From a virus (Duplodnaviria > Heunggongvirae > Uroviricota > Caudoviricetes): a DNA stretch of 14,084 bases. Position numbers and translations under genes: made by a program. The stretch lies in the IMG/VR virus record IMGVR_UViG_2541047837_000006, positions 1 through 14,084 of that record, one strand, 5' to 3'. Below are positions 1 through 14,084 of this stretch, one piece after another. The number at the start of each line of letters is the position of its first letter. Positions within the stretch are counted from its first letter, which is position 1. The notes beneath the pieces were generated by a model that saw only the letters and a program-made list of their open reading frames with translations, had not been told where the DNA came from and did not search any database.

Positions 1-288
1 TCAATGGTTGGCGTCATTATCTTTTTCTCTTTCTGAACGTGAATATTGCGGTGGACGGTTCATCAGCTGTGGGGCAAGACGTTTTGCCACCTGAAGAATA
101 ACCACCACCGCAGCGGGAAGCATGAGCAAAACACCGAGAAAAATCATCAGAATCTGCACTTCTGGCCGAGAAAATGGCTCAGGCAGCGACAGGGAGTCGC
201 TTACCGACAGCAGCGCCACCGCCAGTAGCATCATTCCGATAAATTCCAGTATCAACACGCCTTTAGGCAATTTACCGATCGCGCGCAT
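1..288 (-). CDS. ybjC: Small inner-membrane protein YbjC (DUF1418 family)
   Basis: 95-aa ORF with hydrophobic segments; translation matches my recollection of E. coli YbjC; divergent from grxA as in E. coli. Confidence 0.8.
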   Translation of the reverse strand: MRAIGKLPKGVLILEFIGMMLLAVALLSVSDSLSLPEPFSRPEVQILMIFLGVLLMLPAAVVVILQVAKRLAPQLMNRPPQYSRSEREKDNDANH

Positions 289-447
289 ACGCTTCCCTCT
301 GCAAAGTGAGCCTTCAGTCTAAAACTTTTCACTGTATTGTGTTTAACAGTTATAGCTTTTAGCAATTAATGCAACAGGTTAAACCTACTTTCAGCGAATA
401 CATTTTAGCGTGATCATTACAGGCATAAATCTATGAGGAGAGAAATA

Positions 448-705
448 ATGCAAACCGTTATTTTTGGTCGTTCGGGTTGCCCTTACTGTGTGCGTGCAAA
501 AGATCTGGCTGAGAAATTGAGCAATGAACGCGATGATTTTCAGTATCAGTATGTAGATATTCGTGCGGAAGGGATCACTAAAGAAGATCTACAACAAAAG
601 GCAGGTAAACCCGTAGAAACCGTGCCGCAGATTTTTGTCGATCAGCAACATATCGGCGGCTATACCGATTTTGCTGCATGGGTGAAAGAAAATCTGGACG
701 CCTGA
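448..705 (+). CDS. grxA: Glutaredoxin 1
   Basis: Translation MQTVIFGRSGCPYCVRAKDLAEKL carries the CPYC active-site motif. Start chosen at ATG 448 (SD-like GAGGAGAG at 436-443) rather than the in-frame ATG at 433. Confidence 0.93.
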   Translation: MQTVIFGRSGCPYCVRAKDLAEKLSNERDDFQYQYVDIRAEGITKEDLQQKAGKPVETVPQIFVDQQHIGGYTDFAAWVKENLDA

Positions 706-714
706 TCGTCTGAC

Positions 715-747
715 AAGCCCTCGCGTTGAGGGCTTTACTGATTTTTT
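715..747. terminator. Putative bidirectional terminator between convergent grxA and ybjM
   Basis: Stem agccctc (716-722) / gagggct (728-734) with 5-nt loop, followed by T-run 742-747; lies between two convergent stop codons. Confidence 0.45.
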
Positions 748-1112
748 CTGTGCTGTGGTTTAAACAAACTACTGATAAATAAGAAACACAGTGCCCCCAG
801 CGCACACCAGAACACCGCGCTTAGTAACCATGCCAGCTCTTGCCAGAATGAGCGCGTCGGTGAAAAAAACAGCCGCATAATGAGCATCGAACAGGGTGCC
901 GCCAGCATTGCGCCAAACAGAGGTTTCAGGACTTCTCTACGCTGTGAAAAGAAGCTGGCGACTGCTCCAGGAAGAATGAAAAATAGCAAGCCGATTTCAG
1001 GATGCCCGGCAGCCCGAAAAGCGCCTTTCATGTGCGTCGCCAGAAAAAGGCACACCACAATGAAGAGGACAAAACAGCAGATTGCCCCCGCCCAACGTTG
1101 TTTATGTTTCAC
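735..1112 (-). CDS. ybjM: Inner-membrane protein YbjM
   Basis: 125-aa strongly hydrophobic ORF; translation and position next to grxA and ybjL match E. coli YbjM as I recall it. Confidence 0.8.
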   Translation of the reverse strand: MKHKQRWAGAICCFVLFIVVCLFLATHMKGAFRAAGHPEIGLLFFILPGAVASFFSQRREVLKPLFGAMLAAPCSMLIMRLFFSPTRSFWQELAWLLSAVFWCALGALCFLFISSLFKPQHRKNQ

Positions 1113-1381
1113 TCGTTCCTCCTGACACTGCGTCTATCGAACACATTTTTCGCCAGTGTGGCGTTCAGTAAGATAAAGCCGCTTCGCATTCCATGCTAAT
1201 ATAGGCCAACGCAATTCATATAGCCGTTGATACCTAATGTGATTACACTAGTAAAATATATTGTTGCTTTACTATCGTTTAGGTGCGCTGAATGAATCTG
1301 CGCCCTGAATTCTGGTAAAAAACATTATCGTAAATTACCATTTCTTTCAACAGCTTACTAGTAAACAAGAAGTTAGCCTCC

Positions 1382-3067
1382 GTGAATATAAACGTCGCCG
1401 AATTGTTAAATGGGAATTACATTCTGTTATTATTTGTGGTCCTCGCGCTTGGGCTATGTCTCGGAAAGTTACGACTTGGTTCGATCCAACTGGGTAATTC
1501 CATTGGCGTTTTAGTCGTATCGCTGTTATTAGGCCAACAACATTTCAGCATTAACACCGATGCGCTTAATCTTGGCTTTATGCTGTTTATTTTCTGCGTC
1601 GGGGTCGAAGCCGGACCGAACTTTTTTTCCATTTTTTTTCGCGATGGGAAAAATTACCTAATGTTAGCACTGGTGATGGTTGGCAGTGCGCTGGTGATCG
1701 CCTTAGGGTTAGGTAAGCTGTTTGGCTGGGATATTGGCCTGACGGCCGGTATGTTAGCAGGCTCTATGACGTCGACACCGGTTCTGGTCGGTGCTGGCGA
1801 TACACTGCGTCATTCCGGCATGGAAAGCAGGCAGCTCTCACTGGCACTGGATAATCTGAGCCTCGGGTATGCCTTAACCTATTTAATCGGTCTGGTGAGT
1901 TTGATTGTTGGTGCGCGTTACTTGCCGAAATTGCAGCATCAGGACTTACAGACCAGCGCCCAGCAAATCGCCCGCGAACGTGGCCTGGACACTGATGCCA
2001 ACCGTAAGGTTTATTTACCGGTGATCCGCGCCTATCGCGTCGGCCCGGAACTGGTGGCCTGGACCGACGGCAAAAATCTGCGTGAACTGGGTATTTATCG
2101 ACAAACCGGCTGCTACATTGAACGTATTCGACGTAACGGGATTCTGGCAAATCCAGACGGTGATGCCGTGCTACAAATGGGCGATGAAATAGCGTTGGTA
2201 GGCTATCCCGACGCCCATGCCCGACTCGATCCCAGCTTCCGTAACGGTAAAGAAGTTTTCGATCGTGACCTTCTCGACATGCGTATCGTCACTGAAGAAG
2301 TGGTCGTTAAAAACCATAACGCTGTAGGTAAACGTCTCGCACAACTGAAGTTGACCGATCACGGTTGCTTCCTTAACCGCGTCATTCGTAGCCAGATTGA
2401 GATGCCGATAGATGACAACGTCGTGCTTAACAAAGGTGACGTTTTACAAGTCAGCGGCGATGCCCGCCGCGTAAAAACCATCGCCGATCGCATCGGCTTT
2501 ATCTCGATTCACAGCCAGGTCACTGACCTGCTGGCATTCTGCGCCTTCTTTGTTATTGGGCTGATGATCGGGATGATCACCTTCCAGTTCAGCACATTCA
2601 GTTTCGGCATGGGGAACGCTGCCGGGTTGTTATTCGCCGGAATTATGCTGGGCTTTATGCGTGCTAACCACCCGACCTTCGGTTACATTCCGCAGGGTGC
2701 ATTAAGCATGGTGAAAGAGTTCGGCTTGATGGTGTTTATGGCAGGCGTTGGTCTGAGCGCCGGTAGCGGTATTAATAACGGCCTGGGCGCGATTGGCGGT
2801 CAGATGTTGATTGCCGGATTGATTGTCAGTCTGGTGCCCGTGGTTATCTGTTTCTTGTTCGGTGCTTATGTATTGCGAATGAACCGCGCGCTGTTGTTCG
2901 GCGCAATGATGGGCGCACGTACCTGCGCGCCGGCAATGGAGATCATCAGTGATACAGCTCGCAGTAACATCCCGGCGCTGGGCTATGCGGGCACCTATGC
3001 AATCGCCAACGTCCTGCTGACGCTGGCAGGGACAATCATCGTCATGGTATGGCCAGGATTAGGATAA
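1382..3067 (+). CDS. ybjL: Putative AAE-family transporter YbjL (membrane domains flanking cytoplasmic TrkA-C-like domains)
   Basis: 561-aa ORF with GTG start at 1382; hydrophobic N- and C-terminal blocks around a soluble central region; translation [20 protein letters not shown] matches YbjL. Confidence 0.88.
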
Positions 3068-3179
3068 AACTGAAGTTGCCCTGAAAATGAAATTTTTTTG
3101 CACAACCGCAGAACTTTTCCGCAGGGCATCAGTCTTAATTAGTGCCACTGCTTTTCTTTGATGTCCCCATTTTGTGGAG

Positions 3180-3222
3180 CCCATCAACCCCGCCATTTCG
3201 GTTCAAGGTTGATGGGTTTTTT
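3180..3222 (+). terminator. Rho-independent terminator downstream of ybjL
   Basis: Stem cccatcaacc (3180-3189) / ggttgatggg (3207-3216) followed by TTTTTT (3217-3222). Confidence 0.55.
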
Positions 3223-3302
3223 GTTGCCTGAAATTTATACCGTTTAAAATCATGATGTTAGAAGAACTGTTTTTTAACGATGGCGACAAAATGGCGGCAG
3301 CG

Positions 3303-3521
3303 TCAAAGAGAGAGCGCCACCTGCCCTGATTTCATTGGATGCGGCTGAACCGGATTTGACTCTTTTGGCGTTGCAATCGAACGAACAAAAGTTTCATGAG
3401 TAACAAAAGTATGGCTGCAGTTAATGTTCTGGCACTGGTTGTAACGCTCTTTGGTCAATGAAGATACCTGAAAACTGCTGCGAGTATGGGCGGCACTTCC
3501 ACACAGTGGGCAAATCATCAT
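3303..3521 (-). CDS. ogr: Ogr/Delta-family zinc-finger late transcription activator
   Basis: 72-aa product from ATG at 3521 (SD-like GGGGAGAA upstream); C-x2-C-x22-C-x4-C motif (CPLC ... CQNINC). The ORF is open to a GTG at 3554, so the start is uncertain. Confidence 0.85.
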   Translation of the reverse strand: MMICPLCGSAAHTRSSFQVSSLTKERYNQCQNINCSHTFVTHETFVRSIATPKESNPVQPHPMKSGQVALSL

Positions 3522-3611
3522 TTTTCGAGTTCTCCCCATTTTTGCTAAATTCACAATAATGATACCGCATTATCCCATTTTGCAAACTTAAAAGTTCTCC
3601 ATTGCGAAGAA

Positions 3612-4880
3612 TCATTCCATTTCGAAATCATCAATCCTCACTTCAAGCTCCAGACTGGTCGTAAAACCATTATCCGGGCTGACGGTATGTGTCAGAGTCG
3701 TAATGGTCCATTCCGCATCATCTATCGGCTGTTTAAAGCCACTGACTTTCACTGGCATTTCCGTGTAGAGATCTGCCCGCCCTTCCGCCAGTTGTAGCGA
3801 GAATGACGCAACGCCGCGTTGCAGGCGTTCCCACTGCATTTTCGCCGCTCGTTCAGCGTTGCCCCGGTTGGCATAAGTACGATTAAGTACCAGCACGTTT
3901 TCATCCGTACCCACCAGGTAATCGCCCTGCTTCGCTTCCGGCTCTTTCTTCTGCTTTGCGGTCCTGCGCTTACGCTTCACCGTGGTGCTTTCTTTCTTCG
4001 CGGGTTCGCGGGTATGCAACCAGCTGGCAATTACGCCCGTGTAAGATCCGCGATCTGCCAGGGTAAAGCGGTGACTGTCGCCGTCCTTACGTGTGATAGT
4101 GATCACCGGCAGTGGTTTACCGCTGGCGCTTTTACCCTGTCCCTGCCGAATGAATAACAGATTGCCATTTTTCACCGACGCAATAGCACCGTACTGGCGC
4201 GCCAGCCGCATCAGAAAACTGCCGTCACTCTCATTAGTCTGGTCTATATGTTCCACGGGTTTATCTGACAGGTCTTTACCCAGTGCCATCTTCAGCTTGT
4301 GACGCGCGGCTATTTCCTTCACCACTTCCCCAACTGTGGTCTTGTGCCACGATTTTTCACGGCGGGTATTCAGCGTTTCCCGAAAATCAGCACTTCGCGC
4401 CCGGACACCGTCCACAATTTCCACCATGTTGATAAGGTCCACTTCGTAGAGCACCTCACCATTGATGGTCAGCTTCGCGTAGCTGTTGGTACTGGTCACT
4501 TTGGTGGTGTTGCTTTCGCCCGTCTTCCACTCGCCGGAATCCACTTCTTTGTGACGTCCACGCACCACAAGCTCCACGGCCTGCACTTCCCCGGTATCGT
4601 CACGCTGGATAGAGCCGGTAAAGCGCAGCTGGATGCCATCCACCGTAGCTTTGCCCATCTGCTTAAACAGCAGCAGCTCAGTACCGCCAATGGAAAATTC
4701 AGTATCCAGTGCGCCGTCATCCAGTCCCAGATCCACATCCACCGCCCCCGGCATACCGCCGCCGCGATACTTCTCATATTTGCGGGTGAATTTCGGCAGC
4801 GTCAGCGACTCTACGATCCCCTGCCAGTTGTTCCCGTCGTTAAACAGGTTCAGATGTTTTAATTTACGTGGTAAAGCCAT
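3612..4880 (-). CDS. Chimeric ORF: tail tube FII-like N-terminus (~155 aa) fused in frame to tail protein D-like C-terminus (~265 aa); probable deletion product
   Basis: N-terminus MALPRKLKHLNLFNDG resembles P2 FII tail tube; C-terminus resembles the gpD family and sits directly upstream of ogr as D does in P2. The genes expected between FII and D (E, E', T, U) are absent. Confidence 0.65.
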   Translation of the reverse strand: MALPRKLKHLNLFNDGNNWQGIVESLTLPKFTRKYEKYRGGGMPGAVDVDLGLDDGALDTEFSIGGTELLLFKQMGKATVDGIQLRFTGSIQRDDTGEVQAVELVVRGRHKEVDSGEWKTGESNTTKVTSTNSYAKLTINGEVLYEVDLINMVEIVDGVRARSADFRETLNTRREKSWHKTTVGEVVKEIAARHKLKMALGKDLSDKPVEHIDQTNESDGSFLMRLARQYGAIASVKNGNLLFIRQGQGKSASGKPLPVITITRKDGDSHRFTLADRGSYTGVIASWLHTREPAKKESTTVKRKRRTAKQKKEPEAKQGDYLVGTDENVLVLNRTYANRGNAERAAKMQWERLQRGVASFSLQLAEGRADLYTEMPVKVSGFKQPIDDAEWTITTLTHTVSPDNGFTTSLELEVRIDDFEME

Positions 4881-4889
4881 GTTGCCCCC

Positions 4890-6062
4890 TTACGCGCTTA
4901 CCTGGCTGGAGAAATTCACCAGGTACTGATCGGTGATGCGCTGACGCAGCATCAGGTTTTCAAGTGGCGGTACTGGCGTGTAGTCGTAATCGATGGTGAG
5001 TTTTCCGGCTTTCAGCGTGTCTTTATCGTTCACCGACTCGTCCAGCCAGCAATCACCACCAATGAGATAGCCCTGACTGACCAGGCTGCGCATTTTGGCG
5101 CGAATACCTTCGATAATGTCGCGGGCCAGCGACGGGTTCAGCGGTTTGTCCACCGCCCACATATGCGCTTCTGCCATCGTGTCCATCAGTACCTGCGCCG
5201 TGCGGGTGTAGTTTTCGAAGGCAAAGAGCGGGTCATCACTCAGGCAGCGGGAACCCCAGAAGCGGAAACCGTCTTTGCGGATAAGCGTGGTGACGTCGTT
5301 CTGGTTAAGCAGTCCCGCATCGGTTGCCGGGTCCTGCAGATCCCAGAACACATCAGCAGAAATTCCGGTGACACCGTTCACGCCTACGTTGGACAGGCTC
5401 TTGTGCCACCCGGTCTGCTCATCAATTTTGGCGCGCAGACCGAGCGCACGGGCGGTGGCATATGCCGTTGCTTCGGCATTCAGCACCGTGTCCCAGCCAG
5501 TAAAGTCAGGCCAGATCAGCATCCCTTCGCGCTGACTGAAGTTTTCACGGTAAGTGATCGCCTCCTGCACTGTCTTGCAGCCATACGCTGACAGGTAAGC
5601 AAACCCGCGCAGGCTTTGCGCCACACTCAGCAGCTCAGTCGCAACGGCTTTGTTATCGTGACCCGGCACGCCGAGAATGCGCGGTTTAACGCCGAGCTGT
5701 GACTGGGCAGATAACAGGGCTTTCATACCTGTTTTTTTACCCTCGGCGGTCACTGCGCCAATGATATTGGTTGTGGTTTCTTCTTCCGTTTCACCCTGCG
5801 GCACACGCACAACAACGGTCACGGGTTTTGCCTGGTCAGCGATGGCATCCAGCGAACGGGCCAGCGTGCCGGACTCACCCGCTTTACCGCTGGCAGTCAG
5901 CACATCAGTGATCAGCACGGGTTTATTAAGAGGAAACATTTTTGCATCGGCATCATCGCCCGTGCAGACCATGCCCACGATGGCGGTGCTCACCGTGGTA
6001 ATGGATCGGGTGCCTTCGTTGACTTCAACAACGCGCACTCCGTGGTGGTAATCCTGAGCCAT
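4890..6062 (-). CDS. FI: Contractile tail sheath protein FI
   Basis: 390-aa product; N-terminus [19 protein letters not shown] and C-terminal region [13 protein letters not shown] match P2 FI as I recall it; immediately upstream of the FII-like ORF. Confidence 0.9.
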
Positions 6063-6084
6063 AAGGCAGTCTCTCCGGTTGTAG

Positions 6085-6160
6085 AGGGGGTCTGCCTATG
6101 TTCTGGTTGATACGCGCAGGGTGCACGCGATGGGGATTGTATGGGAAATGGCACAACAGC
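6085..6160 (-). promoter_or_regulatory. Putative Ogr-dependent late promoter pF (dyad TGT-N12-ACA at 6138-6155)
   Basis: TGT (6138-6140), 12-nt spacer, ACA (6153-6155); dyad centre about 85 nt upstream of the FI ATG, consistent with a -55 activator site and ~30-nt leader. Confidence 0.5.
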
Positions 6161-6275
6161 GCCATGAGGGCTTTTCATAAAATAATCAATATATCTCAAT
6201 ATGTATTGATTATTATACGCAAATCTATTTTACTATTGCGCATCTGTCATCCATTTAAATCAGATTGAATACTAT

Positions 6276-7307
6276 ATGAAAAGAGATATTTCTTTAGACC
6301 TGTTACGTATTATTTGTTGTATTTTTGTAATAGGAATTCATGTCACGCCCGACTATGCTTATACTGTTACCAGTAACCAAACAGAAAGTATACAAATACA
6401 AACTCTTTTTGCACAATCAATTGTACGCATTGGTTTACCAATATTCTTTATGTTAAGTGGATACTACCTACTCAACAGACAAAATAGCACTCCACTTTTG
6501 TTTTATAAAAAAAGAATCCCCGCCATTATTATCCCTTTTGTAATATATTCATTAGCACATTACTATATTATTAGCTGGAATAATGGAACGTCATCGAATT
6601 TACTTGAATATTTCTCATTAATATCTAAAAGCACTATTTCACTCTCTGTGCATTTCTGGTTTGTTTATGCCTTTATCGGTTTGTATTTAACCGCTCCAGC
6701 AATTCAATACATAGTCAATAAAATCCCACAAGCCGACAGCCTTAAGGTGATTATAGTTTTGGCTTTCATTTTTTATTATTCATTATACTCATACTCTCTA
6801 AGCCAATCCTCTCAATACTACCATCATTTAATCCCATTACAGAGCATAGATACATGGGTTTTATATTTTGTTGTCGGCGGATTATTAAAAAGAGTTGACA
6901 TTAAAACACATTATATTGTATATAGCATCCCTTTTATATTTTTACTACATGTGATGTTTGTTTATTTTAGCGTTAACAAATATAACTTTAACATATACCC
7001 ATTTGACTCAGGGATTAATATGTTGTTAATGTGTTCCTTGATAGTAATTGCATTTACAAAAATAAACATCAATAATAAAAAAATAATTTTAATCATTGAA
7101 AAAATAGCACCTCTGACATACGGAATTTATTTAATTCATGTTTGTGTTTTCAGAGTCTTAGAGAAATATTTCAATATTCCTTTTATCGTGGACAACATTT
7201 TACTAAAAACAACATCCCTGTCTTTAGTCATTTTTTTTATCAGCCTTGGTTTAAGCTTGATTATTGATCGGTTGTTTGTTAATCCAATTCTCAGACTGAA
7301 TCGTTAA
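6276..7307 (+). CDS. Acyltransferase-3 family integral membrane protein (Oac/OafA-like acyltransferase); prophage cargo gene
   Basis: 343 aa, highly hydrophobic with multiple predicted TM segments; N-terminal LDLLRIICCIFVIGIHV resembles the family signature; strongly AT-rich; occupies the position of Z/fun in P2. Confidence 0.72.
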   Translation: MKRDISLDLLRIICCIFVIGIHVTPDYAYTVTSNQTESIQIQTLFAQSIVRIGLPIFFMLSGYYLLNRQNSTPLLFYKKRIPAIIIPFVIYSLAHYYIISWNNGTSSNLLEYFSLISKSTISLSVHFWFVYAFIGLYLTAPAIQYIVNKIPQADSLKVIIVLAFIFYYSLYSYSLSQSSQYYHHLIPLQSIDTWVLYFVVGGLLKRVDIKTHYIVYSIPFIFLLHVMFVYFSVNKYNFNIYPFDSGINMLLMCSLIVIAFTKININNKKIILIIEKIAPLTYGIYLIHVCVFRVLEKYFNIPFIVDNILLKTTSLSLVIFFISLGLSLIIDRLFVNPILRLNR

Positions 7308-7767
7308 ATGGCTTAGTCGGAAAGGCTGTATCAGAGGCTTTTGATGGATCAATAGCCTCTAATGCTTCAATATAATCAAGCCATATGTTATACATTTCCA
7401 GTTCAGTAGCATTCAGTCTCCCAAGCAATGCTTTCCCCTGCCATTGTTTGTTATTTATATAATTTACAGCTTCTATTATACGTGCTTGTTTTTCAGTTTT
7501 TGCTTTAGCCACTAACTCTGTATATGTGAGTGGTGGCGTATCAATCCATGCAGGCATACCATTATCATCTGCCCCAAGAATTTTTCCTTCCGGAGGTTGT
7601 TTCATGAATTCACAAGCAGTCTCATTTGAAATATCCACCCCTTCCTTAGGCCACATTCCATTTCTTTCATATTCATTTTTTAATATATACGCCATAAATC
7701 TGGCATTTACCTTATCCCATATGAAATCATAAGAAGAATCATGTTGATAATCATCACAACTTTTCAT
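7291..7767 (-). CDS. Tail fibre assembly chaperone (Tfa / gpG-like)
   Basis: 158-aa ORF starting 2 nt after the H stop; soluble protein with a C-terminal region resembling Tfa proteins; AT-rich like the 3' end of H. Confidence 0.6.
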   Translation of the reverse strand: MKSCDDYQHDSSYDFIWDKVNARFMAYILKNEYERNGMWPKEGVDISNETACEFMKQPPEGKILGADDNGMPAWIDTPPLTYTELVAKAKTEKQARIIEAVNYINNKQWQGKALLGRLNATELEMYNIWLDYIEALEAIDPSKASDTAFPTKPFNDSV

Positions 7768-7769
7768 AT

Positions 7770-9209
7770 TTAATATCCAAATGCAATAAATACAGCGCCT
7801 GAAACTTTTGAATCACTGCTGGTTCCTGATGTCAAACAAGTTACAGCAGTAAACCCATCATTATATATACTTTCGCACGACGTAACGACTTGTGCATATG
7901 TCATTTTTGTGACAAACACACCCCATACTCCGTTAGGGAATGGCGTTGGATATGTAATAGGAAGCTGTTGTGGAATACCAATAGTTGTACTATTAGGAAG
8001 ATTTCTTCGAAATATTTGTATAATTAAACCATTCGGACCTTTAACCAACAAATTATCGCTTCCTTTTCCTGTTAGCTGAAAATAGCTCATGTCAGGGATT
8101 TCATAACTATTAGCATTACCAACATTTCTACCTGCCGCATTTCCCAAATGCCCTAAACCAAGATAAGTAAGAATTCCTTCTATATCCTTTCCACTCAAAT
8201 TAGTCAGCGTATTATCCAGCGGTTGTTTGCCTGCCAGCGCATTAAGCATTGTCGTGGCAAAGTTCGGGTCATTCCCCAGCGCCGCCGCCAGTTCGTTCAG
8301 TGTATCCAGTGCCGCAGGTGCAGACCCCACCATTGCTGCAATTGCCGATTTCACAAAAGCTGTAGTGGCAATCTGTGTATTGTTGACCGACTGCGCCGCC
8401 GTGGGGGCTGTTGGCGTTCCGGTGAGTGCCGGACTCGACAACGGTGCTTTTAGTGCCAGCACATTGTTAATGGTGGTACTGAAATTCGGATCATTGTTAA
8501 TGGCTGCGGCTATTTCTTTCAGCGTGTCCAGCGTGGCTGGCGCACCATTAATAAGGGCCGTCAGTGCCGCCTGAACAAACGCAGTGGTCGCAACCTGCGT
8601 GGTATTATTCCCCGCCGCTGGCGTTGGCGCTTTGGGGGTTCCGGTAAACGTCGGACTTTCTTTGGGTGCATACTGTGAATGTGGGTCCTGTGCGGCAAGG
8701 TGTTTTGCCATCAGGTCATCCACATACACCTTCAGCTCCAGTACCTTGTCATCCACATACTTGCGGGTTGCCAGCACTACAGCAGGATCGATTTTCAGGG
8801 TGATATTTTCCGTGCTGCTGGTAATCAGCACCATGCGCACGGTCTGGGTGCGCCCGCTGCCTTCAGCCAGTTGCGGCTTATAGCTTTCCGGGCAGTTGCC
8901 CACGGCAATCAATGCCCCGGACTCATCAAACAGGCCCACTTCACGTATCCACCAACCTCCCTCGTTTTCAGGGATCACCTGTTCGGCAATAATCTGGCTG
9001 CTGTTCTGCGGGTCGATATAGAGCATATTCAGCGCAGCCCGGCGTTTCTCATTTACCAGTGCCGTCTGCTTTGCGTCCGGCGTTGGCAATGTTCCGCCGC
9101 CATCGCCGACCGCCATATGGGTAATTTTTAAAGGCACACCGAGCGCGGCGGCGCTGGCAAGTTTCGCCGCGCCAATATCCGTCAGCAGGGTATAAAATTT
9201 TGTGCTCAT
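7770..9209 (-). CDS. H: Tail fibre protein H with conserved N-terminus and divergent C-terminal receptor-binding region
   Basis: N-terminus MSTKFYTLLTDIGAAKLA ... MAVGDGGG ... ESYKPQLAEGSGR resembles P2 gpH; internal repeats contain the NELAAALGNDPNF motif; C-terminal ~160 aa unrelated and AT-rich. Confidence 0.85.
   Translation of the reverse strand: MSTKFYTLLTDIGAAKLASAAALGVPLKITHMAVGDGGGTLPTPDAKQTALVNEKRRAALNMLYIDPQNSSQIIAEQVIPENEGGWWIREVGLFDESGALIAVGNCPESYKPQLAEGSGRTQTVRMVLITSSTENITLKIDPAVVLATRKYVDDKVLELKVYVDDLMAKHLAAQDPHSQYAPKESPTFTGTPKAPTPAAGNNTTQVATTAFVQAALTALINGAPATLDTLKEIAAAINNDPNFSTTINNVLALKAPLSSPALTGTPTAPTAAQSVNNTQIATTAFVKSAIAAMVGSAPAALDTLNELAAALGNDPNFATTMLNALAGKQPLDNTLTNLSGKDIEGILTYLGLGHLGNAAGRNVGNANSYEIPDMSYFQLTGKGSDNLLVKGPNGLIIQIFRRNLPNSTTIGIPQQLPITYPTPFPNGVWGVFVTKMTYAQVVTSCESIYNDGFTAVTCLTSGTSSDSKVSGAVFIAFGY
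8230..8700. repeat. Diverged tandem duplication (~230 bp unit) inside tail fibre gene H
   Basis: Two protein-level repeats (ATTAFV...ALDTL.E.AAA...DPNF.TT) and corresponding DNA similarity, e.g. gttccggtgagtgccgg versus gttccggtaaacgtcgg; boundaries approximate. Confidence 0.55.
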
Positions 9210-9811
9210 GGATTCACTCTCATTGTGTCAATAACATGGACCGCCCCGCCTTCATGCGCGGTGCCGCCGGAAATAATTGTTTCGTTGATATACGGATAGA
9301 TCGTGATTTCTTCACCAAGATAGCTGGCGGCTCCCACCCAATGCGGGCCGCTGGTCTGCAGATTGATGGACATGCCGATCATGTGACGGCTACATGGTTT
9401 GGCATCGCTTATCAGCCGCTCAAGCTCCAGATAGGTATCTTCAGTGATGCCCTGGTCCTGCACACCAATGTCCAGGCGAAACGTACCCGGTGTTTCTCCG
9501 GTCTGCCACCACTCAATAATGCGGATCAGGAAGCCGAACGGCTCCACCACCCGCCGCACGGCACTGGTGGTTCCTTTATGCTGATGAATATAAAAAGCAT
9601 CCTTCACCACCTGTCGTTTGACGCTTTCCGTCCAGCCCTCGTCCCAGCGATCCACAGAGAACGCCCAGGCGAGATAAGGCAGGAAACTGATCGGACAGGT
9701 CGTTGGATTCCACAAGTCACGCAGCGGCACCTGCAGATCAGAAATCCCGCTGCAGGTTTGCGCCAGTCGGCGCTCCAGTGGCGTTGAACCCGGTGGCAGC
9801 AGACTATTCAT
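9206..9811 (-). CDS. I: Baseplate/tail protein I
   Basis: 201-aa product with the motif LRDLWNPTTCP ... LAWAFSVDRWDE ... GTFRLDIGV ... DAKPCSRHMIG resembling P2 gpI; start overlaps the preceding J' stop and its stop overlaps the H start. Confidence 0.8.
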   Translation of the reverse strand: MNSLLPPGSTPLERRLAQTCSGISDLQVPLRDLWNPTTCPISFLPYLAWAFSVDRWDEGWTESVKRQVVKDAFYIHQHKGTTSAVRRVVEPFGFLIRIIEWWQTGETPGTFRLDIGVQDQGITEDTYLELERLISDAKPCSRHMIGMSINLQTSGPHWVGAASYLGEEITIYPYINETIISGGTAHEGGAVHVIDTMRVNP

Positions 9812-10034
9812 CCGTTCCTCCGTTGGTTACGCTCCACTGCGTACATGATGCCGCCTGTGTTTTGTTCAGGACCACATCCGCCAGAGGAGAAGCCAGCTCC
9901 ACACGCTGCACACCCTCAACATGCAGGGCGGCAAAGATGGCGCTACGGCGAATATCCCGACCAAGACGCGTCTGACTGGCGATGTACTTCTGCAGGCTGG
10001 CTTTTGCCGCTGCCATTACCGGCTCTGCTTCCGG
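9804..10034 (-). pseudogene. J: Baseplate protein J, C-terminal ~70-aa fragment
   Basis: Translation AKASLQKYIASQTRLGRDIRRSAIFAALHVEGVQRVEL resembles the gpJ C-terminus; the frame is closed by a stop at 10035-10037, so the N-terminal ~230 aa are absent. Confidence 0.6.
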
Positions 10035-10375
10035 TCAGCGAACTTCGGGCTGACTTCCATAGAGGTGAATAATTTCTGGCCTTTTTTCACCAGTTCCACC
10101 AGGGACTCCGTTGGCTCAACGTCGGCATACAGCGCCATCTTGCCTGCCAGCGGACCTTCCGTGATTTCTTCAGCAAACAGCGCCGTCACCTTGCCGTAGC
10201 GGTTAAAGGTGCTGTCCGGCAGATAAGACTTGATGTGCTCAAGGTTAATCAGCGCGGTATACACCGCCGGGTTGTAGCTGGCTGCCATCTGTTCCAGCCA
10301 TTCTCGCTGGATTTCGCGTCCGTCGGTGGTGGCACCTTCCACCCCGATGCGAAAACGCTTTGCTTTCACTGTCAT
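10016..10375 (-). pseudogene. O: Capsid scaffold protein O, N-terminal ~110-aa fragment
   Basis: Translation FRIGVEGATTDGREIQ ... INLEHIK ... TSMEVSPKFA resembles the gpO N-terminus; ORF ends after 119 aa versus ~280 aa for intact O. Confidence 0.65.
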
Positions 10376-10399
10376 GAGCCGTGCTCCGTTAGAAAAAAC

Positions 10400-10475
10400 T
10401 TACTGGAGCCTTATGGTTGCGGTGATGGGGGCAGTGAAACAATGCGCGGTATTTGTACCGACAACCACACAAACC
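10400..10475 (-). promoter_or_regulatory. Putative Ogr-dependent late promoter pO (dyad TGT-N12-ACA at 10454-10471)
   Basis: TGT (10454-10456), 12-nt spacer, ACA (10469-10471); dyad centre ~87 nt upstream of the O' ATG, the same spacing as the FI dyad. Confidence 0.5.
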
Positions 10476-10517
10476 GCAGGCGGGGAAAGCCTTCATTCAA
10501 GGCTGTAGGTTTGTGCC

Positions 10518-11372
10518 ATGAACACCACACTGACACCCGCAGATCTCGATCCCCGTCGGCAGGCCATGCTGCTGTACTTTCAGGGATACCGCGTAGCCCG
10601 CATTGCTGAAATGCTGGGCGAGAAAGTTGCAACCGTTCACAGCTGGAAAAAACGCGACAAGTGGGGTGACTATGGGCCGCTGGATCAGATGCAGCTCACC
10701 ACCGCCGCACGCTACTGCCAGCTCATCATGAAGGAGCACAAAGAAGGGAAAGATTTCAAAGAGATTGACCTGCTGGCGCGCCAGTCTGAGCGCCACGCGC
10801 GGATCGGCAAGTTTAACAATGGCGGCAACGAATCCGACTTAAACCCTAACGTCGCCAACCGCAACAAAGGCCCACGCCGTCAGCCGGAAAAGAATGTTTT
10901 CACCGATGAGCAGATTGAGAAGCTGGAAGAAATCTTCCATTCCTCCATGTTCAACTACCAGCGCCACTGGTGGGAAGCCGGAAAAACCAACCGCATCCGC
11001 AACCTGCTGAAGTCACGCCAGATCGGCGCGACCTTTTACTTTGCCCGTGAAGCCCTGATTGACGCCCTGCTGACCGGACGTAACCAGATTTTCCTTTCCG
11101 CCAGCAAGGCACAGGCCCACGTCTTTAAGCAGTACATCATCGACTTCGCCAAAGAAGTGGAGGTGGAGTTGAAAGGCGATCCGATGGTGCTTCCTAACGG
11201 GGCCACGCTTTACTTCCTCGGCACCAATGCCCGCACTGCCCAGAGTTATCACGGCAACCTGTATCTGGATGAATATTTCTGGATACCGAAATTCCAGGAG
11301 CTGCGCAAAGTGGCTTCCGGTACCGCACCTGCAGCAACACGCCCGATCTCTGCGGTTGCACTCATGACGTAA
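10518..11372 (+). pseudogene. P: Terminase large subunit P, N-terminal ~268-aa fragment
   Basis: Translation ...[15 protein letters not shown] ... [12 protein letters not shown] ... [15 protein letters not shown] ... [15 protein letters not shown] resembles the gpP N-terminus; similarity ends near 11321 and the ORF stops at 11372 versus ~590 aa for intact P. Confidence 0.8.
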
Positions 11373-11662
11373 TGTGGCAGTTTCTCTTTTGCCACCTCAT
11401 TAATTGGTACGCATGGCAGGCAGTGAATCTGTGCCAGAAAACCATCTACCAACGTTGAATCTTCAGTCAGATCGGTAAGCAGCCAGATTTCTGGTGCGGT
11501 TAATAAATGAGGTTGAGCTGGGTTCAGCTTGTTCCGCAGAATCTGCACATTCATGCCCGCACGTTCTGCCAGTTGCACCAGATTGTGGCGCAGTGCGAAT
11601 GCACGACAGGCTTCATCAAAATGTGGATGTTTGGAAACTTGGTAATCAAACATGGTTTTCAA
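11249..11662 (-). pseudogene. 186 CII-like transcription activator, 3'-truncated; ORF tail runs antisense into the P fragment
   Basis: N-terminal ~105 aa with an HTH-like segment ([19 protein letters not shown]) and position downstream of the apl-like gene; the last ~30 codons are the antisense of P coding sequence. Confidence 0.5.
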
Positions 11663-11717
11663 CTCCGAACTTATCGCAAAATCGAACTCAGCGTCTTATT
11701 GCGAAAATAGACGTCTA

Positions 11718-11921
11718 TTAAGCAGACAAAGCATCAACAGTCAGAGCAGCCAGGTTAATCATTACCTTTTCACGTTTTTTGTCTTTACGAAGACGATGAC
11801 GAGGTAGTCGGCCATCAGCCAACATGTCGTTAATCGTATCAATAGAAAGGCCAGTCAGTTCGCTATAACGTTCGATTGTGACATGTGGTGTATTCAGAGT
11901 AATTGAAATGTTAGGTGTCAT
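11718..11921 (-). CDS. Apl/Cox-like small DNA-binding excisionase and switch regulator
   Basis: 67-aa basic ORF, first gene divergent from the repressor and followed by the CII-like gene, the arrangement of the 186 lytic operon; SD-like AAGGA upstream. Confidence 0.6.
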
Positions 11922-12066
11922 AAGGCAACATTCCTTCTAGATATGGCTTGTGGCGAGCCGTTGTTTGTCGTGATTAGTAGTGAAGGCTCCAAAAGAACAC
12001 TTCTGGTTCAACTTTAAGATCGCTTTTGGAATCTGTCAACGAATTTTGGATTTCTTTGGAGGACTT
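11922..12066. promoter_or_regulatory. Putative immunity switch region (lytic and lysogenic promoters with operators) between apl-like and cI-like genes
   Basis: Divergent gene starts; 8-bp perfect inverted repeat tccaaaag (11988-11995) / cttttgga (12023-12030). Promoter elements not individually resolved. Confidence 0.4.
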
Positions 12067-12636
12067 GTGGATTTCAATAGCGGCGGTAAGAAAGCCATAG
12101 AACGTTTAGTTGAAGCATATGGGTTCGGTACCCGTCAGGCTCTCTGTGATCATTTAGGTGTTTCTAAGAGCACCATGGCAACGCGCTATATGCGTGATAT
12201 TTTTCCAGCAGATTGGGTAATCCAGTGCGCCCTTGAAACGGGCACCTCGCTTAATTGGCTAACAACAGGGCATGGTTCAAAGCAAGCATCAGCAAATACA
12301 AATACTATAGAAGTAGAAAAATATTTATTGTCTGATGGAGCATTGCAGAAAGACGGTTTTTATATTTTTGATAAGGGATTTCTACCCTCTACGTTTAAAA
12401 AACCTTTTGTCATCACAGATAACAATTCTGAATTTATTTGTGATAAAGAATTTGATGATATACGTGATGGTAAATGGGTAATAAGTATTGATGGCGAAAT
12501 AACGATCCGTGACATTACTCGTTTACCCGGTGGAAGAATCTTCGTCGAGGGTGGAAACAGAGCCTTCGAATGCAAGATAGAAGACATTGAAATAATTGGT
12601 AAAATTATAAGTTTAACAGTCAAGCATGTTAAATAG
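12067..12636 (+). CDS. 186 CI-type immunity repressor (~189 aa)
   Basis: Divergent from apl and upstream of int; LVEAYGFG N-terminal region and overall length consistent with the 186 CI family. Start set at GTG 12067 (GGAGGA at 12058-12063); the ORF is open to a GTG at 11980, so the start is uncertain. Confidence 0.65.
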   Translation: MDFNSGGKKAIERLVEAYGFGTRQALCDHLGVSKSTMATRYMRDIFPADWVIQCALETGTSLNWLTTGHGSKQASANTNTIEVEKYLLSDGALQKDGFYIFDKGFLPSTFKKPFVITDNNSEFICDKEFDDIRDGKWVISIDGEITIRDITRLPGGRIFVEGGNRAFECKIEDIEIIGKIISLTVKHVK

Positions 12637-12651
12637 TACCGGGAGGAAACT

Positions 12652-12843
12652 ATGCTTGGTAAGGTATTTTTTGTGGTTTTGTCATGTTCTTTGTTATTAA
12701 ACCCACTAACTACCTATGCTAGAAATTATCCCTGCTCAGGGAAAAAGGGAGGTGTTTCTCACTGTACCTCAGATGGCAAATTCGTTTGCAATGATGGAAC
12801 TATTAGTAAATCCAAAAAAATCTGTACTAAAAACTCACGATAA
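12652..12843 (+). CDS. Small secreted or lipid-anchored Cys-rich protein (63-aa precursor) of unknown function
   Basis: Strong SD GGGAGG 6 nt upstream of the ATG; N-terminal signal peptide ([23 protein letters not shown]); basic mature part of ~40 aa with 4 Cys; 15 nt downstream of cI on the same strand; AT-rich. Confidence 0.5.
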
Positions 12844-13031
12844 CTTTTGCTTTTATATCTGCGTCTAAAATAAAAATGAGCCGCAGGTTAACCGCAAAAG
12901 TTACATGCTCACATAGCAAAAAGAATAGCCAACTTCATGATGGCTTCAGTGAGATGTATGGTCGTAGGATTTCATACATTGACACTGGTTATACATACAG
13001 TAAAAATGCTCTCTACTGGAGGGCATTTTTT

Positions 13032-14084
13032 ATGGCAGTACGAAAACTCACCACAGGGAAATGGCTTTGCGAATGTTACCCCGCCGGACGTAGTGGGCGT
13101 CGTGTGCGTAAACAATTCGCCACCAAAGGCGAAGCTCTGGCTTTTGAGCGCCACACGATGGAAGAAACCGAAGCAAAGCCCTGGCTGGGTGAATCAGTGG
13201 ATCGTCGAACACTGAAAGACGTAGTTGAGCTATGGTTCAAACTACATGGTAAATCTCTGACAGCTGGGCAGCATGTCTATGACAAATTGCTGTTGATGGT
13301 TGACGCTCTGGGTAATCCTCTTGCAACCGATCTCACCTCTAAAATGTTTGCCCACTATCGAGATAAACGCCTGACAGGCGAGATCTACTTCAGCGAGAAA
13401 TGGAAGAAAGGAGCAAGCCCGGTCACCATTAACCTGGAGCAAAGCTATCTAAGTAGTGTTTTTAGCGAACTATCCCGTCTGGGCGAATGGTCGTATCCGA
13501 ACCCACTGGAGAACATGCGAAAATTCACCATCGCAGAAAAAGAGATGGCATGGCTTACCCATGAGCAGATTGTTGAATTGCTGGCTGATTGCAAACGTCA
13601 GGACCCAATTCTGGCACTGGTAGTTAAGATATGCTTAAGCACAGGCGCACGCTGGCGTGAAGCCGTAAATCTTACCCGCTCACAGGTGACCAAATACCGA
13701 ATTACCTTTGTCAGAACGGAGGGGAAGAAAAACAGAAGCATCCCTATCAGTAAAGAGCTTTACGAAGAGATCATGGCGCTTGATGGGTTCAATTTCTTTA
13801 CAGACTACTATTTTCAATTTTTATCCGTGATGGAAAAAACGTCTATCGTGCTCCCTCGCGGTCAACTCACACACGTTCTGCGCCATACGTTTGCGGCGCA
13901 CTTCATGATGTCGGGTGGAAACATTCTCGCCTTACAAAAAATTCTCGGACACCACGATATAAAAATGACTATGCGTTACGCACATCTGGCACCAGATCAT
14001 CTGGAAACGGCGCTCCGTTTCAATCCTCTGGCAACGCTGCCAAGTGGCGACAAAGTGGCGGCAGCGGTTGGCATTACCCCGTAA
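13032..14084 (+). CDS. int: Tyrosine recombinase (phage integrase)
   Basis: Catalytic signature present: R in LSTGARWREA, H-x-x-R in HVLRHTFAAH, Y in MTMRYAHL; N-terminal MAVRKLTTGKW typical of this integrase family. The ORF is open from 12876 but the extension is AT-rich and unlike integrase N-termini. Confidence 0.9.
   Translation: MAVRKLTTGKWLCECYPAGRSGRRVRKQFATKGEALAFERHTMEETEAKPWLGESVDRRTLKDVVELWFKLHGKSLTAGQHVYDKLLLMVDALGNPLATDLTSKMFAHYRDKRLTGEIYFSEKWKKGASPVTINLEQSYLSSVFSELSRLGEWSYPNPLENMRKFTIAEKEMAWLTHEQIVELLADCKRQDPILALVVKICLSTGARWREAVNLTRSQVTKYRITFVRTEGKKNRSIPISKELYEEIMALDGFNFFTDYYFQFLSVMEKTSIVLPRGQLTHVLRHTFAAHFMMSGGNILALQKILGHHDIKMTMRYAHLAPDHLETALRFNPLATLPSGDKVAAAVGITP

What the first reader, a model, noticed from the sequence alone, without database searches (positions are those of the whole stretch)
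11300..11372. Junction between terminase P' and the CII-like gene, with convergent overlapping ORFs
P similarity stops near 11321 and the CII-like similarity stops at about the same place on the opposite strand; each ORF then runs on as the antisense of the other. The portal gene and the whole replication and early region (about 10 kb in P2) are missing between them. The CII-like protein has lost its C-terminal third, which the 186 CII family needs for oligomerisation.
Basis: inference. Interest (0 to 1): 0.4.

Follow-up and report, generated by a model that had tools for sequence, protein, structure and literature searches.

The report
Prophage deletion scar, recurrent breakpoint
This is the scar of an 11.6-kb deletion that disabled a P2/186-like prophage of E. 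coli, ordinary in itself, but its end inside the regulatory gene cII lies at exactly the same nucleotide as in at least 15 other, independently formed deletions, which points to an undescribed site-specific break or arrest point in these phages.

Summary
The window is E. coli LR-64-2 chromosome, a P2/186-like prophage remnant between ybjL and rcdA. Similarity to terminase gene P (+ strand) ends at 11322. Similarity to cII (- strand) ends at 11321. The two share a TA (11321-11322). Compared with an intact prophage at the same site (strain VE-F10), 11.6 kb is missing: the 3' 54% of P, portal Q, cos, cargo genes, replication gene A, fil and the last 58 of 169 cII codons. The overlapping ORF tails (16 and 23 codons) are read-through by-products. 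NCBI's annotation already marks both genes as pseudogenes. The identical junction occurs on at least 24 contigs that are 99.99% identical, so it is inherited within a clone.

The new result concerns the cII end, which is not random. Sixteen different deletion alleles, including the classical E. coli B defective prophage, end at this same TA. They join to 16 different downstream sites (A, Q, P, O, lysis, tail genes, D), deleting 3.4 to 29.8 kb, and they sit next to at least five different immunity modules. Thirteen of 15 partner sites carry TA at the joint.

The mechanism is unresolved. The att core, the ori nick site, cos, Chi, hairpins and IS elements were tested and none explains it.

The parts
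10518..11322 (+). P' : 5' 46% of the terminase large-subunit (gpP) gene, 268 native codons (HTH/Terminase_5 plus the N-terminal part of the ATPase domain); the nuclease half is missing
   Evidence: (PGAP: pseudogene, missing C-terminus)
11323..11372 (+). read-through tail of the P' ORF into antisense cII (16 codons plus stop); by-product
11321..11322 (.). deletion joint: TA shared by both parents; it is the recurrent cII breakpoint (= L016 36170-36171)
11321..11653 (-). cII' : first 111 of 169 codons of a 186-type CII (PF06892) gene
   Evidence: (PGAP pseudogene)
11249..11320 (-). read-through tail of the cII' ORF into antisense P (23 codons plus stop); by-product
11718..11921 (-). apl/cox-like small gene, first gene of the early (pR) operon, intact
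12011..12039 (-). pR-like sigma-70 promoter (TTGACA-17-TAAAGT) reading into apl-cII'; no terminator-like site lies between it and P'
   Evidence: consensus scan only
12067..12636 (+). cI immunity repressor, intact (both Pfam CI domains)
13032..14084 (+). integrase, intact; its end runs to attL next to rcdA
10035..10036 (.). second deletion joint of the same remnant (scaffold gene O' joined to baseplate gene J', 7.1 kb missing, GA microhomology)
4405..4405 (.). third deletion joint (tail tube FII' joined to D', 4.4 kb missing, 1-nt overlap); it gives an in-frame 422-aa FII'-D' ORF (3612-4880, - strand)

Best explanation
Window 11300-11372 holds the joint of an illegitimate, microhomology-associated deletion in a 186-type (Peduoviridae) prophage integrated between ybjL and rcdA.

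Shown:
- The deletion fused codon 268 of P to codon 111 of the convergently oriented cII at a shared TA.
- It removed about 11.6 kb: the P nuclease half, portal, cos, cargo, a Tum/DinI-like gene, replication gene A, dam, fil and the cII C-terminus.

Inferred consequence: together with two further internal deletions this leaves a grounded remnant that cannot replicate, package or lyse, but keeps pR-apl, cI, int, ogr, tail-fibre genes and an acyltransferase. P' and cII' are dead fragments and their overlapping tails are accidental.

Also shown: the cII end is a hot spot. Sixteen distinct deletion alleles end at the same ...GCAGGTGCGG[TA] and run to different sites on the same side.

Inferred mechanism: a site-specific initiating event at this position exposes or positions a DNA end at cII nucleotide 333. 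That event could be a strand break, a topoisomerase or nickase cleavage, or an arrest of the strand synthesised in the apl-to-cII direction. The end is then joined or re-primed at a downstream site through 0-8 nt of homology that nearly always includes TA. Selection keeps only products that retain cI and lose the replication and lysis genes. The determinant must lie in or next to the retained cII sequence, so the site can fire in any prophage that carries this cII.
For: - Identity and context.
- Breakpoint mapping.
- Missing content.
- Truncation of both proteins.
- CII fragments of 135 residues or fewer are inactive: PMC7708051.
- Clonal inheritance.
- Hot spot, first seen at protein level: one search lists ten truncated CII proteins, eight of which diverge right after ...AAGAV with eight different tails.
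- Hot spot at DNA level: 16 distinct joints mapped against the intact reference, all at the ybjL-rcdA locus where flanks are available.
- Left arms carry at least five different cI/int modules.
- Less biased estimate, 400-nt query: 1230 of 1307 complete genomes that carry this cII are intact across the site, and 2 of 4 sampled partial hits start at the hot spot.
- Less biased estimate, 100-nt probes: 58 and 54 partial matches for the probes that reach 44 and 28 nt into the deleted side, and 0 and 0 for the probes on the retained side. About 54 genomes therefore break within a 16-nt interval around the TA, 4 in the preceding 16 nt and 0 in the following 49 nt.
- Joint anatomy: 13 of 15 partner sites have TA. 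Extra identity occurs on both sides more often than chance. All jumps are colinear and forward. Short islands of 28-451 nt follow the cII joint in several remnants, and L006 has an 11-nt insertion.
- No contig retains the cII 3' side up to the TA joined to something else.
Against: - The initiating event is not identified.
- Most extra alleles were found with searches that presuppose a break at or near this site (the protein cluster, the DNA patterns). Only searches are unbiased, and short-probe counts are blurred by allelic divergence.
- Partner sequences are read from a proxy reference (VE-F10), not from the true parents, so individual microhomology lengths may be off by a base or two. L006 and L026 show no TA in the proxy.
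- Some alleles could be successive events in one lineage rather than independent hits on intact prophages. That would still require re-use of the site.
- Nothing here is experimental.
Confidence: 0.8

Rival explanations
1. One-off random illegitimate deletion. Under this view the coincidence with other remnants is ascertainment bias or shared ancestry, and there is no preferred site.
For: Microhomology at the window's own joint is only 2 nt, typical of random illegitimate recombination. Many alleles were found with site-conditioned searches.
Against: There are sixteen different partner sequences at one nucleotide and at least five different immunity modules next to the same cII'. The unbiased sample and the probe counts concentrate breaks in a 16-nt interval. 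A secondary deletion would leave partner bases at the joint, and none are shared.
Confidence: 0.06
2. Breakage and joining by an enzyme that acts at TA or at GGTA: a single-strand nick-and-join (HUH-type) enzyme, a serine-type recombinase with a TA crossover dinucleotide, or a TA-targeting transposase. The cII site would be a good site and the partners degenerate pseudo-sites.
For: TA is present at 13 of 15 partner sites. GG precedes TA in 4 partners, and TACC (the inverse of GGTA) follows the joint in 4. The identity block is centred on TA rather than ending at it.
Against: No recombinase site, IS or foreign element was found at or next to any joint. Partner sites are not CTAG (IS630 type). 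The L006 partner lacks TA in the proxy. The phage's own candidates fail. The att core is unrelated. The ori nick regions of P2, 186 and the VE-F10 type (...CTCG|GAGTCCTGTCAATAAC and relatives) do not align with the hot spot in register.
Confidence: 0.2
3. A strong DNA gyrase (type II topoisomerase) cleavage site at GG|TATC. Deletions would arise by subunit exchange or faulty resealing, and would be favoured by quinolones, which also induce 186-type prophages through SOS.
For: Joint identity often lies within TATC (TA, TAT, TATC). One end is fixed and the partners are variable and poorly homologous. The TCCGG allele reads GCCGGATA, as in REP elements, which bind gyrase (my own recollection, not tested).
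Against: The match to the published cleavage consensus is only partial and was judged from memory. Retained-side identity (GG, GCGG) is not predicted. No data on cleavage are available here.
Confidence: 0.1
4. The convergent overlapping ORFs are functional: a new fusion protein or an antisense regulatory pair.
For: Both ORFs are open, the remnant is conserved in a clone, and no terminator-like site lies between them.
Against: The tails are 16 and 23 codons of antisense sequence with no homologues other than the same clone. Other alleles have unrelated tails of 7-28 residues. The clone differs by 1 nt in 13.5 kb, so conservation carries no information. pR is expected to be shut by the intact CI, and P needs late activation.
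Confidence: 0.02

Closest known systems
Defective P2-like prophage of E. coli B / BL21 (source of P2 Hy dis; carries retron Ec86)
   Same: It has the same chromosomal site (next to rcdA), the same phage type and the same cII breakpoint to the nucleotide (L014, L024, L029).
   Different: Its cII' is joined to the middle of replication gene A (3.4 kb deleted), so cos, Q and P are kept. It has a different immunity module and different further deletions.
Coliphage 186 (Eganvirus) and P2 (Peduovirus)
   Same: The gene order int-cI | apl-cII-fil...A...cos-Q-P | O N M... is shared. CII is 69% identical to 186 CII over the shared part, and GGTGCGGTATCTG is identical in 186 cII.
   Different: The remnant lacks about two thirds of the genome. 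Its replication gene type (VE-F10-like A, 34% identical to 186 A) and its immunity region differ.
Deletion hot spots at replication arrest sites and at nick sites of rolling-circle origins (Ter sites; M13 and pC194 origins; from my own knowledge of the work of Bierne, Michel and Ehrlich)
   Same: One fixed end at a defined nucleotide, variable second ends, and little or short homology at the joints.
   Different: No Ter-like, ori-like or other known arrest or nick signal could be recognised at the cII site. The second ends lie 3-30 kb away.
Microhomology-mediated end joining and template switching in E. coli (alternative end joining; MMBIR-type events; own knowledge)
   Same: Microhomology of 0-8 nt, colinear multi-jump products with short retained islands, and a small templated-looking insertion in L006.
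   Different: Those processes have no intrinsic site preference, whereas here one end is invariant.
Cryptic P2 remnant of E. coli K-12 (ogrK-yegZ; own knowledge)
   Same: A grounded P2-family prophage reduced by internal deletions that retains ogr and D'.
   Different: It sits at another chromosomal site and has no int-cI-cII' arm.

Membership tests
P2/186-like prophage (Peduoviridae) | Homologues of the family's genes in the family's order and orientation at a prophage integration site | tested here: met
   ogr, D', FII', FI, G, H, I, J', O', P', cII', apl, cI and int lie between ybjL and rcdA, colinear with an intact prophage at the same site at 86-99% identity.
P2/186-like prophage (Peduoviridae) | Complete, inducible genome (cos, portal, capsid, replication gene A) | tested here: not met
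   All of these lie inside the three deletions. The element is a remnant, not a functional prophage.
186-type CII activator (Pfam PF06892) | Full-length protein of about 169 residues, of which at least the first 145 are required for activity | tested here: not met
   Only residues 1-111 are native. The 135-residue product of 186 CII is inactive (PMC7708051).
Terminase large subunit gpP | N-terminal DNA-binding region, complete ATPase domain and C-terminal nuclease domain | tested here: not met
   268 of 588 residues remain. Terminase_6N is matched only over positions 1-123 of 215, and the C-terminal half is absent.
Microhomology-associated illegitimate deletion | A clean joint of two colinear parental sequences with a few shared bases and no foreign DNA | tested here: met
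   A TA overlap, with both flanks 98% identical to the parent up to the joint.
Integrase-mediated (att-like) recombination | Similarity of the joint to the att core | tested here: not met
   The att core (ATGGCGACAAAnTGGCGGCAG region) shares only a hexamer with the sequence near the hot spot.
Rolling-circle initiator (gpA) nick-site recombination | The hot spot resembles the ori nick sequence in register | tested here: not met
   The ori regions of P2, 186 and the VE-F10 type were compared. Similarity appears only with a gap and out of register, and a pattern search finds no second copy.
IS- or transposon-mediated adjacent deletion | The element, or a footprint of it, is present at the joint | tested here: not met
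   All mapped partners are phage genes directly abutting the TA. No contig shows the reciprocal side joined to foreign DNA.
RecBCD/Chi-limited degradation | A correctly oriented Chi just inside the retained end | tested here: not met
   There is no Chi in the window or in the 41-kb reference. Only a two-mismatch Chi-like octamer is present.
Hairpin/palindrome-stimulated deletion | A stable secondary structure at the site | tested here: not met
   DNA folding of either strand is no better than shuffled controls (z = 0.62 and -0.24).
Gyrase-mediated illegitimate recombination | In vivo gyrase cleavage at the site | not testable with these tools
   Only a partial resemblance to the cleavage consensus, recalled from memory.

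The most novel reading that the evidence does not exclude
Nucleotide 333 of the cII gene of this widespread group of 186-type prophages is a site-specific break, nick or arrest point. An unidentified enzyme or process acts there. When the site fires it produces one-sided nested deletions that remove the replication, packaging and lysis genes while sparing immunity. This would be a recurrent, mechanistically defined route by which E. coli 'grounds' these prophages. About 4% of the complete genomes that carry this cII show a break within the 16-nt interval around the site, but those breaks were not individually mapped.
Probability: 0.5. Interest if true: 0.75.

Novelty: new variant of a known kind. 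Interest (0 to 1): 0.55.

Why it matters
The junction itself only documents prophage decay. The shared endpoint is what matters. Prophage domestication is usually described as random deletion filtered by selection. Here one end of the deletion is fixed to the nucleotide in many independent events, in lineages that include the laboratory workhorse E. coli B/BL21.

This makes the question 'how are prophages inactivated?' directly testable for one phage group. One can induce a lysogen, collect survivors, sequence across cII, and then vary host recombination, topoisomerase and phage functions as well as the GGTATC sequence. If a specific nick or cleavage is found, it would reveal either an unknown cis-acting site of 186-type phages or a host activity that targets them. 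It would also explain the structure of a common class of E. coli remnants.

Tried and rejected
- A search with full-length CII against the 5.8-billion-protein collection listed only full-length relatives and gave no view of truncated forms.
- The scan of one genome per species with the junction pattern found nothing.
- One metagenome hit (L027) was a chance 25-nt match inside a pectate-lyase-like gene and was discarded.
- The four 100-nt probe searches were meant to give clean counts per interval. Divergent alleles of the cII 3' part changed the totals, so only the numbers of partial matches were used.
- A sharp conservation boundary at codon 111 among close CII relatives was looked for and not found. 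This argues against a mosaic-boundary or homology-end explanation, as do the 1230 of 1307 genomes that are homogeneous across the site.
- Sequence comparisons of the hot spot with the att core (36), the ori nick sites (46, 54, 71), cos (60-63) and Chi (66), with a second copy of the 18-mer (37), and with hairpin predictions (49, 50) were all negative.
- By eye I also compared the site with conjugative relaxase nick sites, Ter, LexA and IHF boxes, IS1 and IS5 ends and type IIS restriction sites, all from memory. None fitted in register, and none was tested with tools.
- Literature searches found no description of a cII deletion hot spot. The paper that maps the P2 gpA cleavage site is not held.

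Full report
ORIGIN AND CONTEXT. A 351-nt query across the finding matches one of 5,426 complete E. coli genomes over its full length at 100% identity: strain LR-64-2, NZ_AP027595.1. The window is 1311418-1325501 of that record (window coordinate = L001 coordinate minus 8851). Between the host genes ybjL and rcdA lies a P2/186-like prophage remnant. Its parts, in window coordinates, are:
- ogr (3303-3521, -)
- D' and FII' (pseudogenes joined at 4405)
- FI, an acyltransferase, G, H and I
- J' and O' (pseudogenes joined at 10035-10036)
- P' (10518-11327 in NCBI's annotation) and cII' (11321-11653)
- an apl/cox-like gene, cI, a small YdcA-like ORF and int
NCBI's pipeline already labels P' and cII' 'incomplete; missing C-terminus'.

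THE OBSERVATION. Similarity to P-type terminase genes of phages and prophages runs to window 11322. Similarity to cII runs from 11321 on the other strand. An alignment with both parental regions of an intact prophage shows the switch at GTGGCTTCCGG[TA]CCGCACCTGCAGC, with TA present in both parents. The P' ORF has 268 native codons and 16 foreign ones and stops at 11372. The cII' ORF has 111 native codons and 23 foreign ones and stops at 11249. Pfam sees only the N-terminal parts of both families. The antisense overlap of 124 nt is simply what read-through to the next stop produces.

WHAT IS MISSING. Strain VE-F10 carries an intact relative at the same chromosomal site and in the same orientation. 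Against it the window aligns in colinear blocks, with three gaps of 4.4, 7.1 and 11.6 kb. The gap at the finding spans L016 24582-36169. It contains:
- the 3' 54% of P, and portal Q
- two cargo genes, and cos (about L016 28020-28038)
- three hypothetical genes and a DinI/Tum-like gene
- replication endonuclease A, dam, a TraR/DksA-like gene, DUF2732 and DUF5347
- fil, and the last 58 codons of cII
The remnant therefore has no replication, packaging, head or lysis functions. It keeps a pR-like promoter, apl, an intact cI and int. For phage 186 the 135-residue degradation product of CII is inactive, whereas CII145 is active (PMC7708051). CII(1-111) is therefore expected to be dead.

INHERITANCE. 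The 284-aa P' product includes a junction-specific tail. This exact sequence occurs on at least 24 contigs (33 index blocks) from NCBI, ENA and Logan, among them E. coli HVH 209, always in the same context. Two of these loci are 99.99% identical to the window over 13.5 kb and contain all three joints.

THE UNEXPECTED RESULT: A RECURRENT cII END. The protein cluster around cII' holds other truncated CII proteins. Of the ten listed, eight diverge immediately after the same residue (...[10 protein letters not shown]) and have eight different tails. I fetched their contigs and two complete genomes sampled from an unbiased search (E. coli B derivative T7 Express and strain PSS-10). I also fetched hits of DNA patterns that exclude the intact sequence, and mapped everything on the intact reference. 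One hit was a chance match and was discarded.

The result is 16 distinct joints. In all of them the cII side ends at ...GCAGGTGCGG[TA] (L016 36170-36171 = window 11321-11322). The other side lies, in order, at these L016 coordinates:
- A (32800; E. coli B type)
- Q (25965 and 25876)
- P (24697, 24647, 24580 = the window, and 23853)
- O (22856)
- holin (20148), lysB (18964), R (18314)
- I (15594), H (15144), T (7997), D (6327)
- one partner absent from the reference

The deletions range from 3.4 to 29.8 kb, all on the same side, forming a nested set. Wherever flanks are available the remnants sit at ybjL-rcdA. They carry at least five different cI/int modules. They are therefore not one clone, and no partner bases are shared between alleles.

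Less biased numbers:
- Of 1307 complete genomes with this cII, 1230 are intact across the site. Of four partial hits sampled evenly, two begin within 4 nt of the hot spot.
- The 100-nt probes that reach 44 and 28 nt into the deleted side give 58 and 54 partial matches. The probes on the retained side give none.
- This places about 54 genomes with a break in a 16-nt interval around the TA, 4 in the preceding 16 nt and none in the next 49 nt. Allelic divergence blurs these counts somewhat.
- No viral contig keeps the cII 3' side up to the TA joined to something else, whereas six viral contigs keep the 5' side.

ANATOMY OF THE JOINTS. Thirteen of 15 partner sites, read from the proxy reference, have TA at the joint. 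Exact identity beyond TA is 0 nt in 11 joints, 2 nt in 3 and 4 nt in 1 on the retained side. On the deleted side it is 0 nt in 10 joints and 1, 2, 2, 3 and 5 nt in the others. Each side has four cases of 2 nt or more where about one is expected by chance, so the identity block is centred on TA. L006 has no TA in its partner. Its joint is followed by a 28-nt island of lysB, an 11-nt insertion (CTGGCGCGGTA) and then gene E. Several remnants keep only 28-451 nt after the cII joint before the next jump, and all jumps are colinear and forward. Six of 15 partners fall in the 2.1 kb of P-Q. The invariant strand end (...GGTA-3') lies on the cII sense strand. From my knowledge of the K-12 map, this strand is also the nascent leading strand of the chromosomal fork at this locus. 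It is also the strand extended from the phage ori (annotations).

MECHANISM: WHAT WAS TESTED. The following were all negative:
- The att core is unrelated.
- The ori nick regions of P2, 186 and the VE-F10-type A gene resemble each other but not the hot spot in register. No second copy of the hot-spot 18-mer or of the 186 ori motif exists in the prophage.
- The cos 19-mer is unrelated.
- There is no Chi site in the window or in 41 kb of reference.
- Neither strand folds better than shuffled controls.
- No IS or foreign element abuts any joint.
- CII relatives show no sharp conservation boundary at codon 111 that could end homologous pairing.

What remains is an inference. Some site-specific event exposes or positions a DNA end at cII nucleotide 333: a break, a nick, a topoisomerase cleavage or an arrest of synthesis. 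The end is joined or re-primed downstream with minimal homology, and selection for retention of cI and loss of lethal genes shapes the one-sidedness. Because the retained side is the only constant, the determinant should lie there or at the joint itself, and the site can fire again after each event.

Rival sub-mechanisms cannot be separated with sequence alone. These are a TA- or GGTA-specific nick-and-join enzyme or recombinase, a strong gyrase site, and replication arrest with template switching.

COMPARISON WITH WHAT IS KNOWN. The element is a member of the P2/186 family by gene content and order, but it is not a functional prophage. P' and cII' fail the membership tests for complete terminase and CII. 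The closest described object is the defective P2-like prophage of E. coli B, which turns out to share this very cII breakpoint. The pattern of one fixed end and many second ends resembles deletion hot spots at replication arrest sites and at rolling-circle origin nick sites (own knowledge), but none of their signals is present. I found no paper describing this hot spot. That search covers open-access text only.

VERDICT. The finding as written is correct and, taken alone, ordinary: a prophage deletion scar, already flagged as two pseudogenes. Its cII end, however, belongs to a strongly recurrent breakpoint that appears to be undescribed and whose mechanism is open. The interest score reflects that second point.

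Noticed in passing
window 3612-4880 (- strand): The FII'/D' deletion joint (4405) is in frame. It gives a 422-aa ORF with an N-terminal tail-tube domain and a C-terminal gpD domain, and gene callers report it as one protein (Phage_tube + Phage_GPD) in related contigs.
   Followed up: partly
window 4405, 10035-10036, 11321-11322: Read on the - strand, the sequence copied after each of the window's three deletion joints starts with CCGG ([T]CCGGGCGCG, [GA]CCGGAAGCAG, [TA]CCGGAAGCCA). Two of the three share ACCGGAAGC. L028 also continues with CCGG after the TA, and the intact TCCGG allele reads TATCCGG. This could be chance or a sign of imperfect homology use.
   Followed up: partly
L006 10321-10400: This is a complex joint. 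After the cII TA come a 28-nt island of lysB, then 11 nt (CTGGCGCGGTA) that resemble the two flanks of the hot spot, then gene E. It looks like serial template switching.
   Followed up: partly
L010, L012, L017, L018, L020 (left of the cII joint): Several remnants keep only 164-451 nt of partner DNA after the cII joint before a second jump further downstream. All pieces are colinear and in the original orientation.
   Followed up: partly
L016 23853-25968: Six of 15 mapped partner sites cluster in the 2.1 kb of P and Q. These are the only late genes oriented against the early operon and against the chromosomal fork. About one would be expected if the sites were spread evenly.
   Followed up: no
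window 1-14084 and L016 1-41001: There is no Chi site (GCTGGTGG) on either strand in the whole window or in the 41-kb VE-F10 region. From my own knowledge, Chi occurs about once per 4-5 kb on average in E. coli.
   Followed up: no
window 6276-7307 (+ strand): An acyltransferase (Acyl_transf_3) gene is inserted between the tail sheath and tail-fibre assembly genes on the opposite strand. It is also present in the intact VE-F10 prophage and is probably a lysogenic-conversion cargo gene kept by the remnant.
   Followed up: no
window 11626-11656: An inverted repeat ATGTTTG...CAAACAT overlaps the cII start codon. This is the position where phage 186 has its CII-binding site and pE promoter.
   Followed up: no
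window 12876-14084: The longest int ORF starts at 12876 (402 aa) but the annotated gene starts at 13032 (350 aa). The last codons of int run into the att region, and a similar sequence (ATGGCGACAAAnTGGCGGCAG) recurs at the ogr end of the intact prophage.
   Followed up: partly
L033-L038, L040-L044 (viral contigs): A common intact cII allele reads GGTATCCGGCG instead of GGTATCTGGCG right after the hot-spot TA. On the other strand this gives GCCGGATA, as in REP elements.
   Followed up: no
L014 4258-6306: The E. coli B remnant carries a retron (St85-family reverse transcriptase plus effector) in the cargo position next to Q. Other remnants carry different defence-like cargo between cI and int (SNIPE/DUF4041, DUF4747).
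   Followed up: no
L027 5649-5673: A 25-nt exact match to the cII hot-spot flank lies inside an unrelated pectate-lyase-like gene of an environmental contig. It is a chance hit and a reminder that 23 specified bases are not unique in the metagenome collection.
   Followed up: yes
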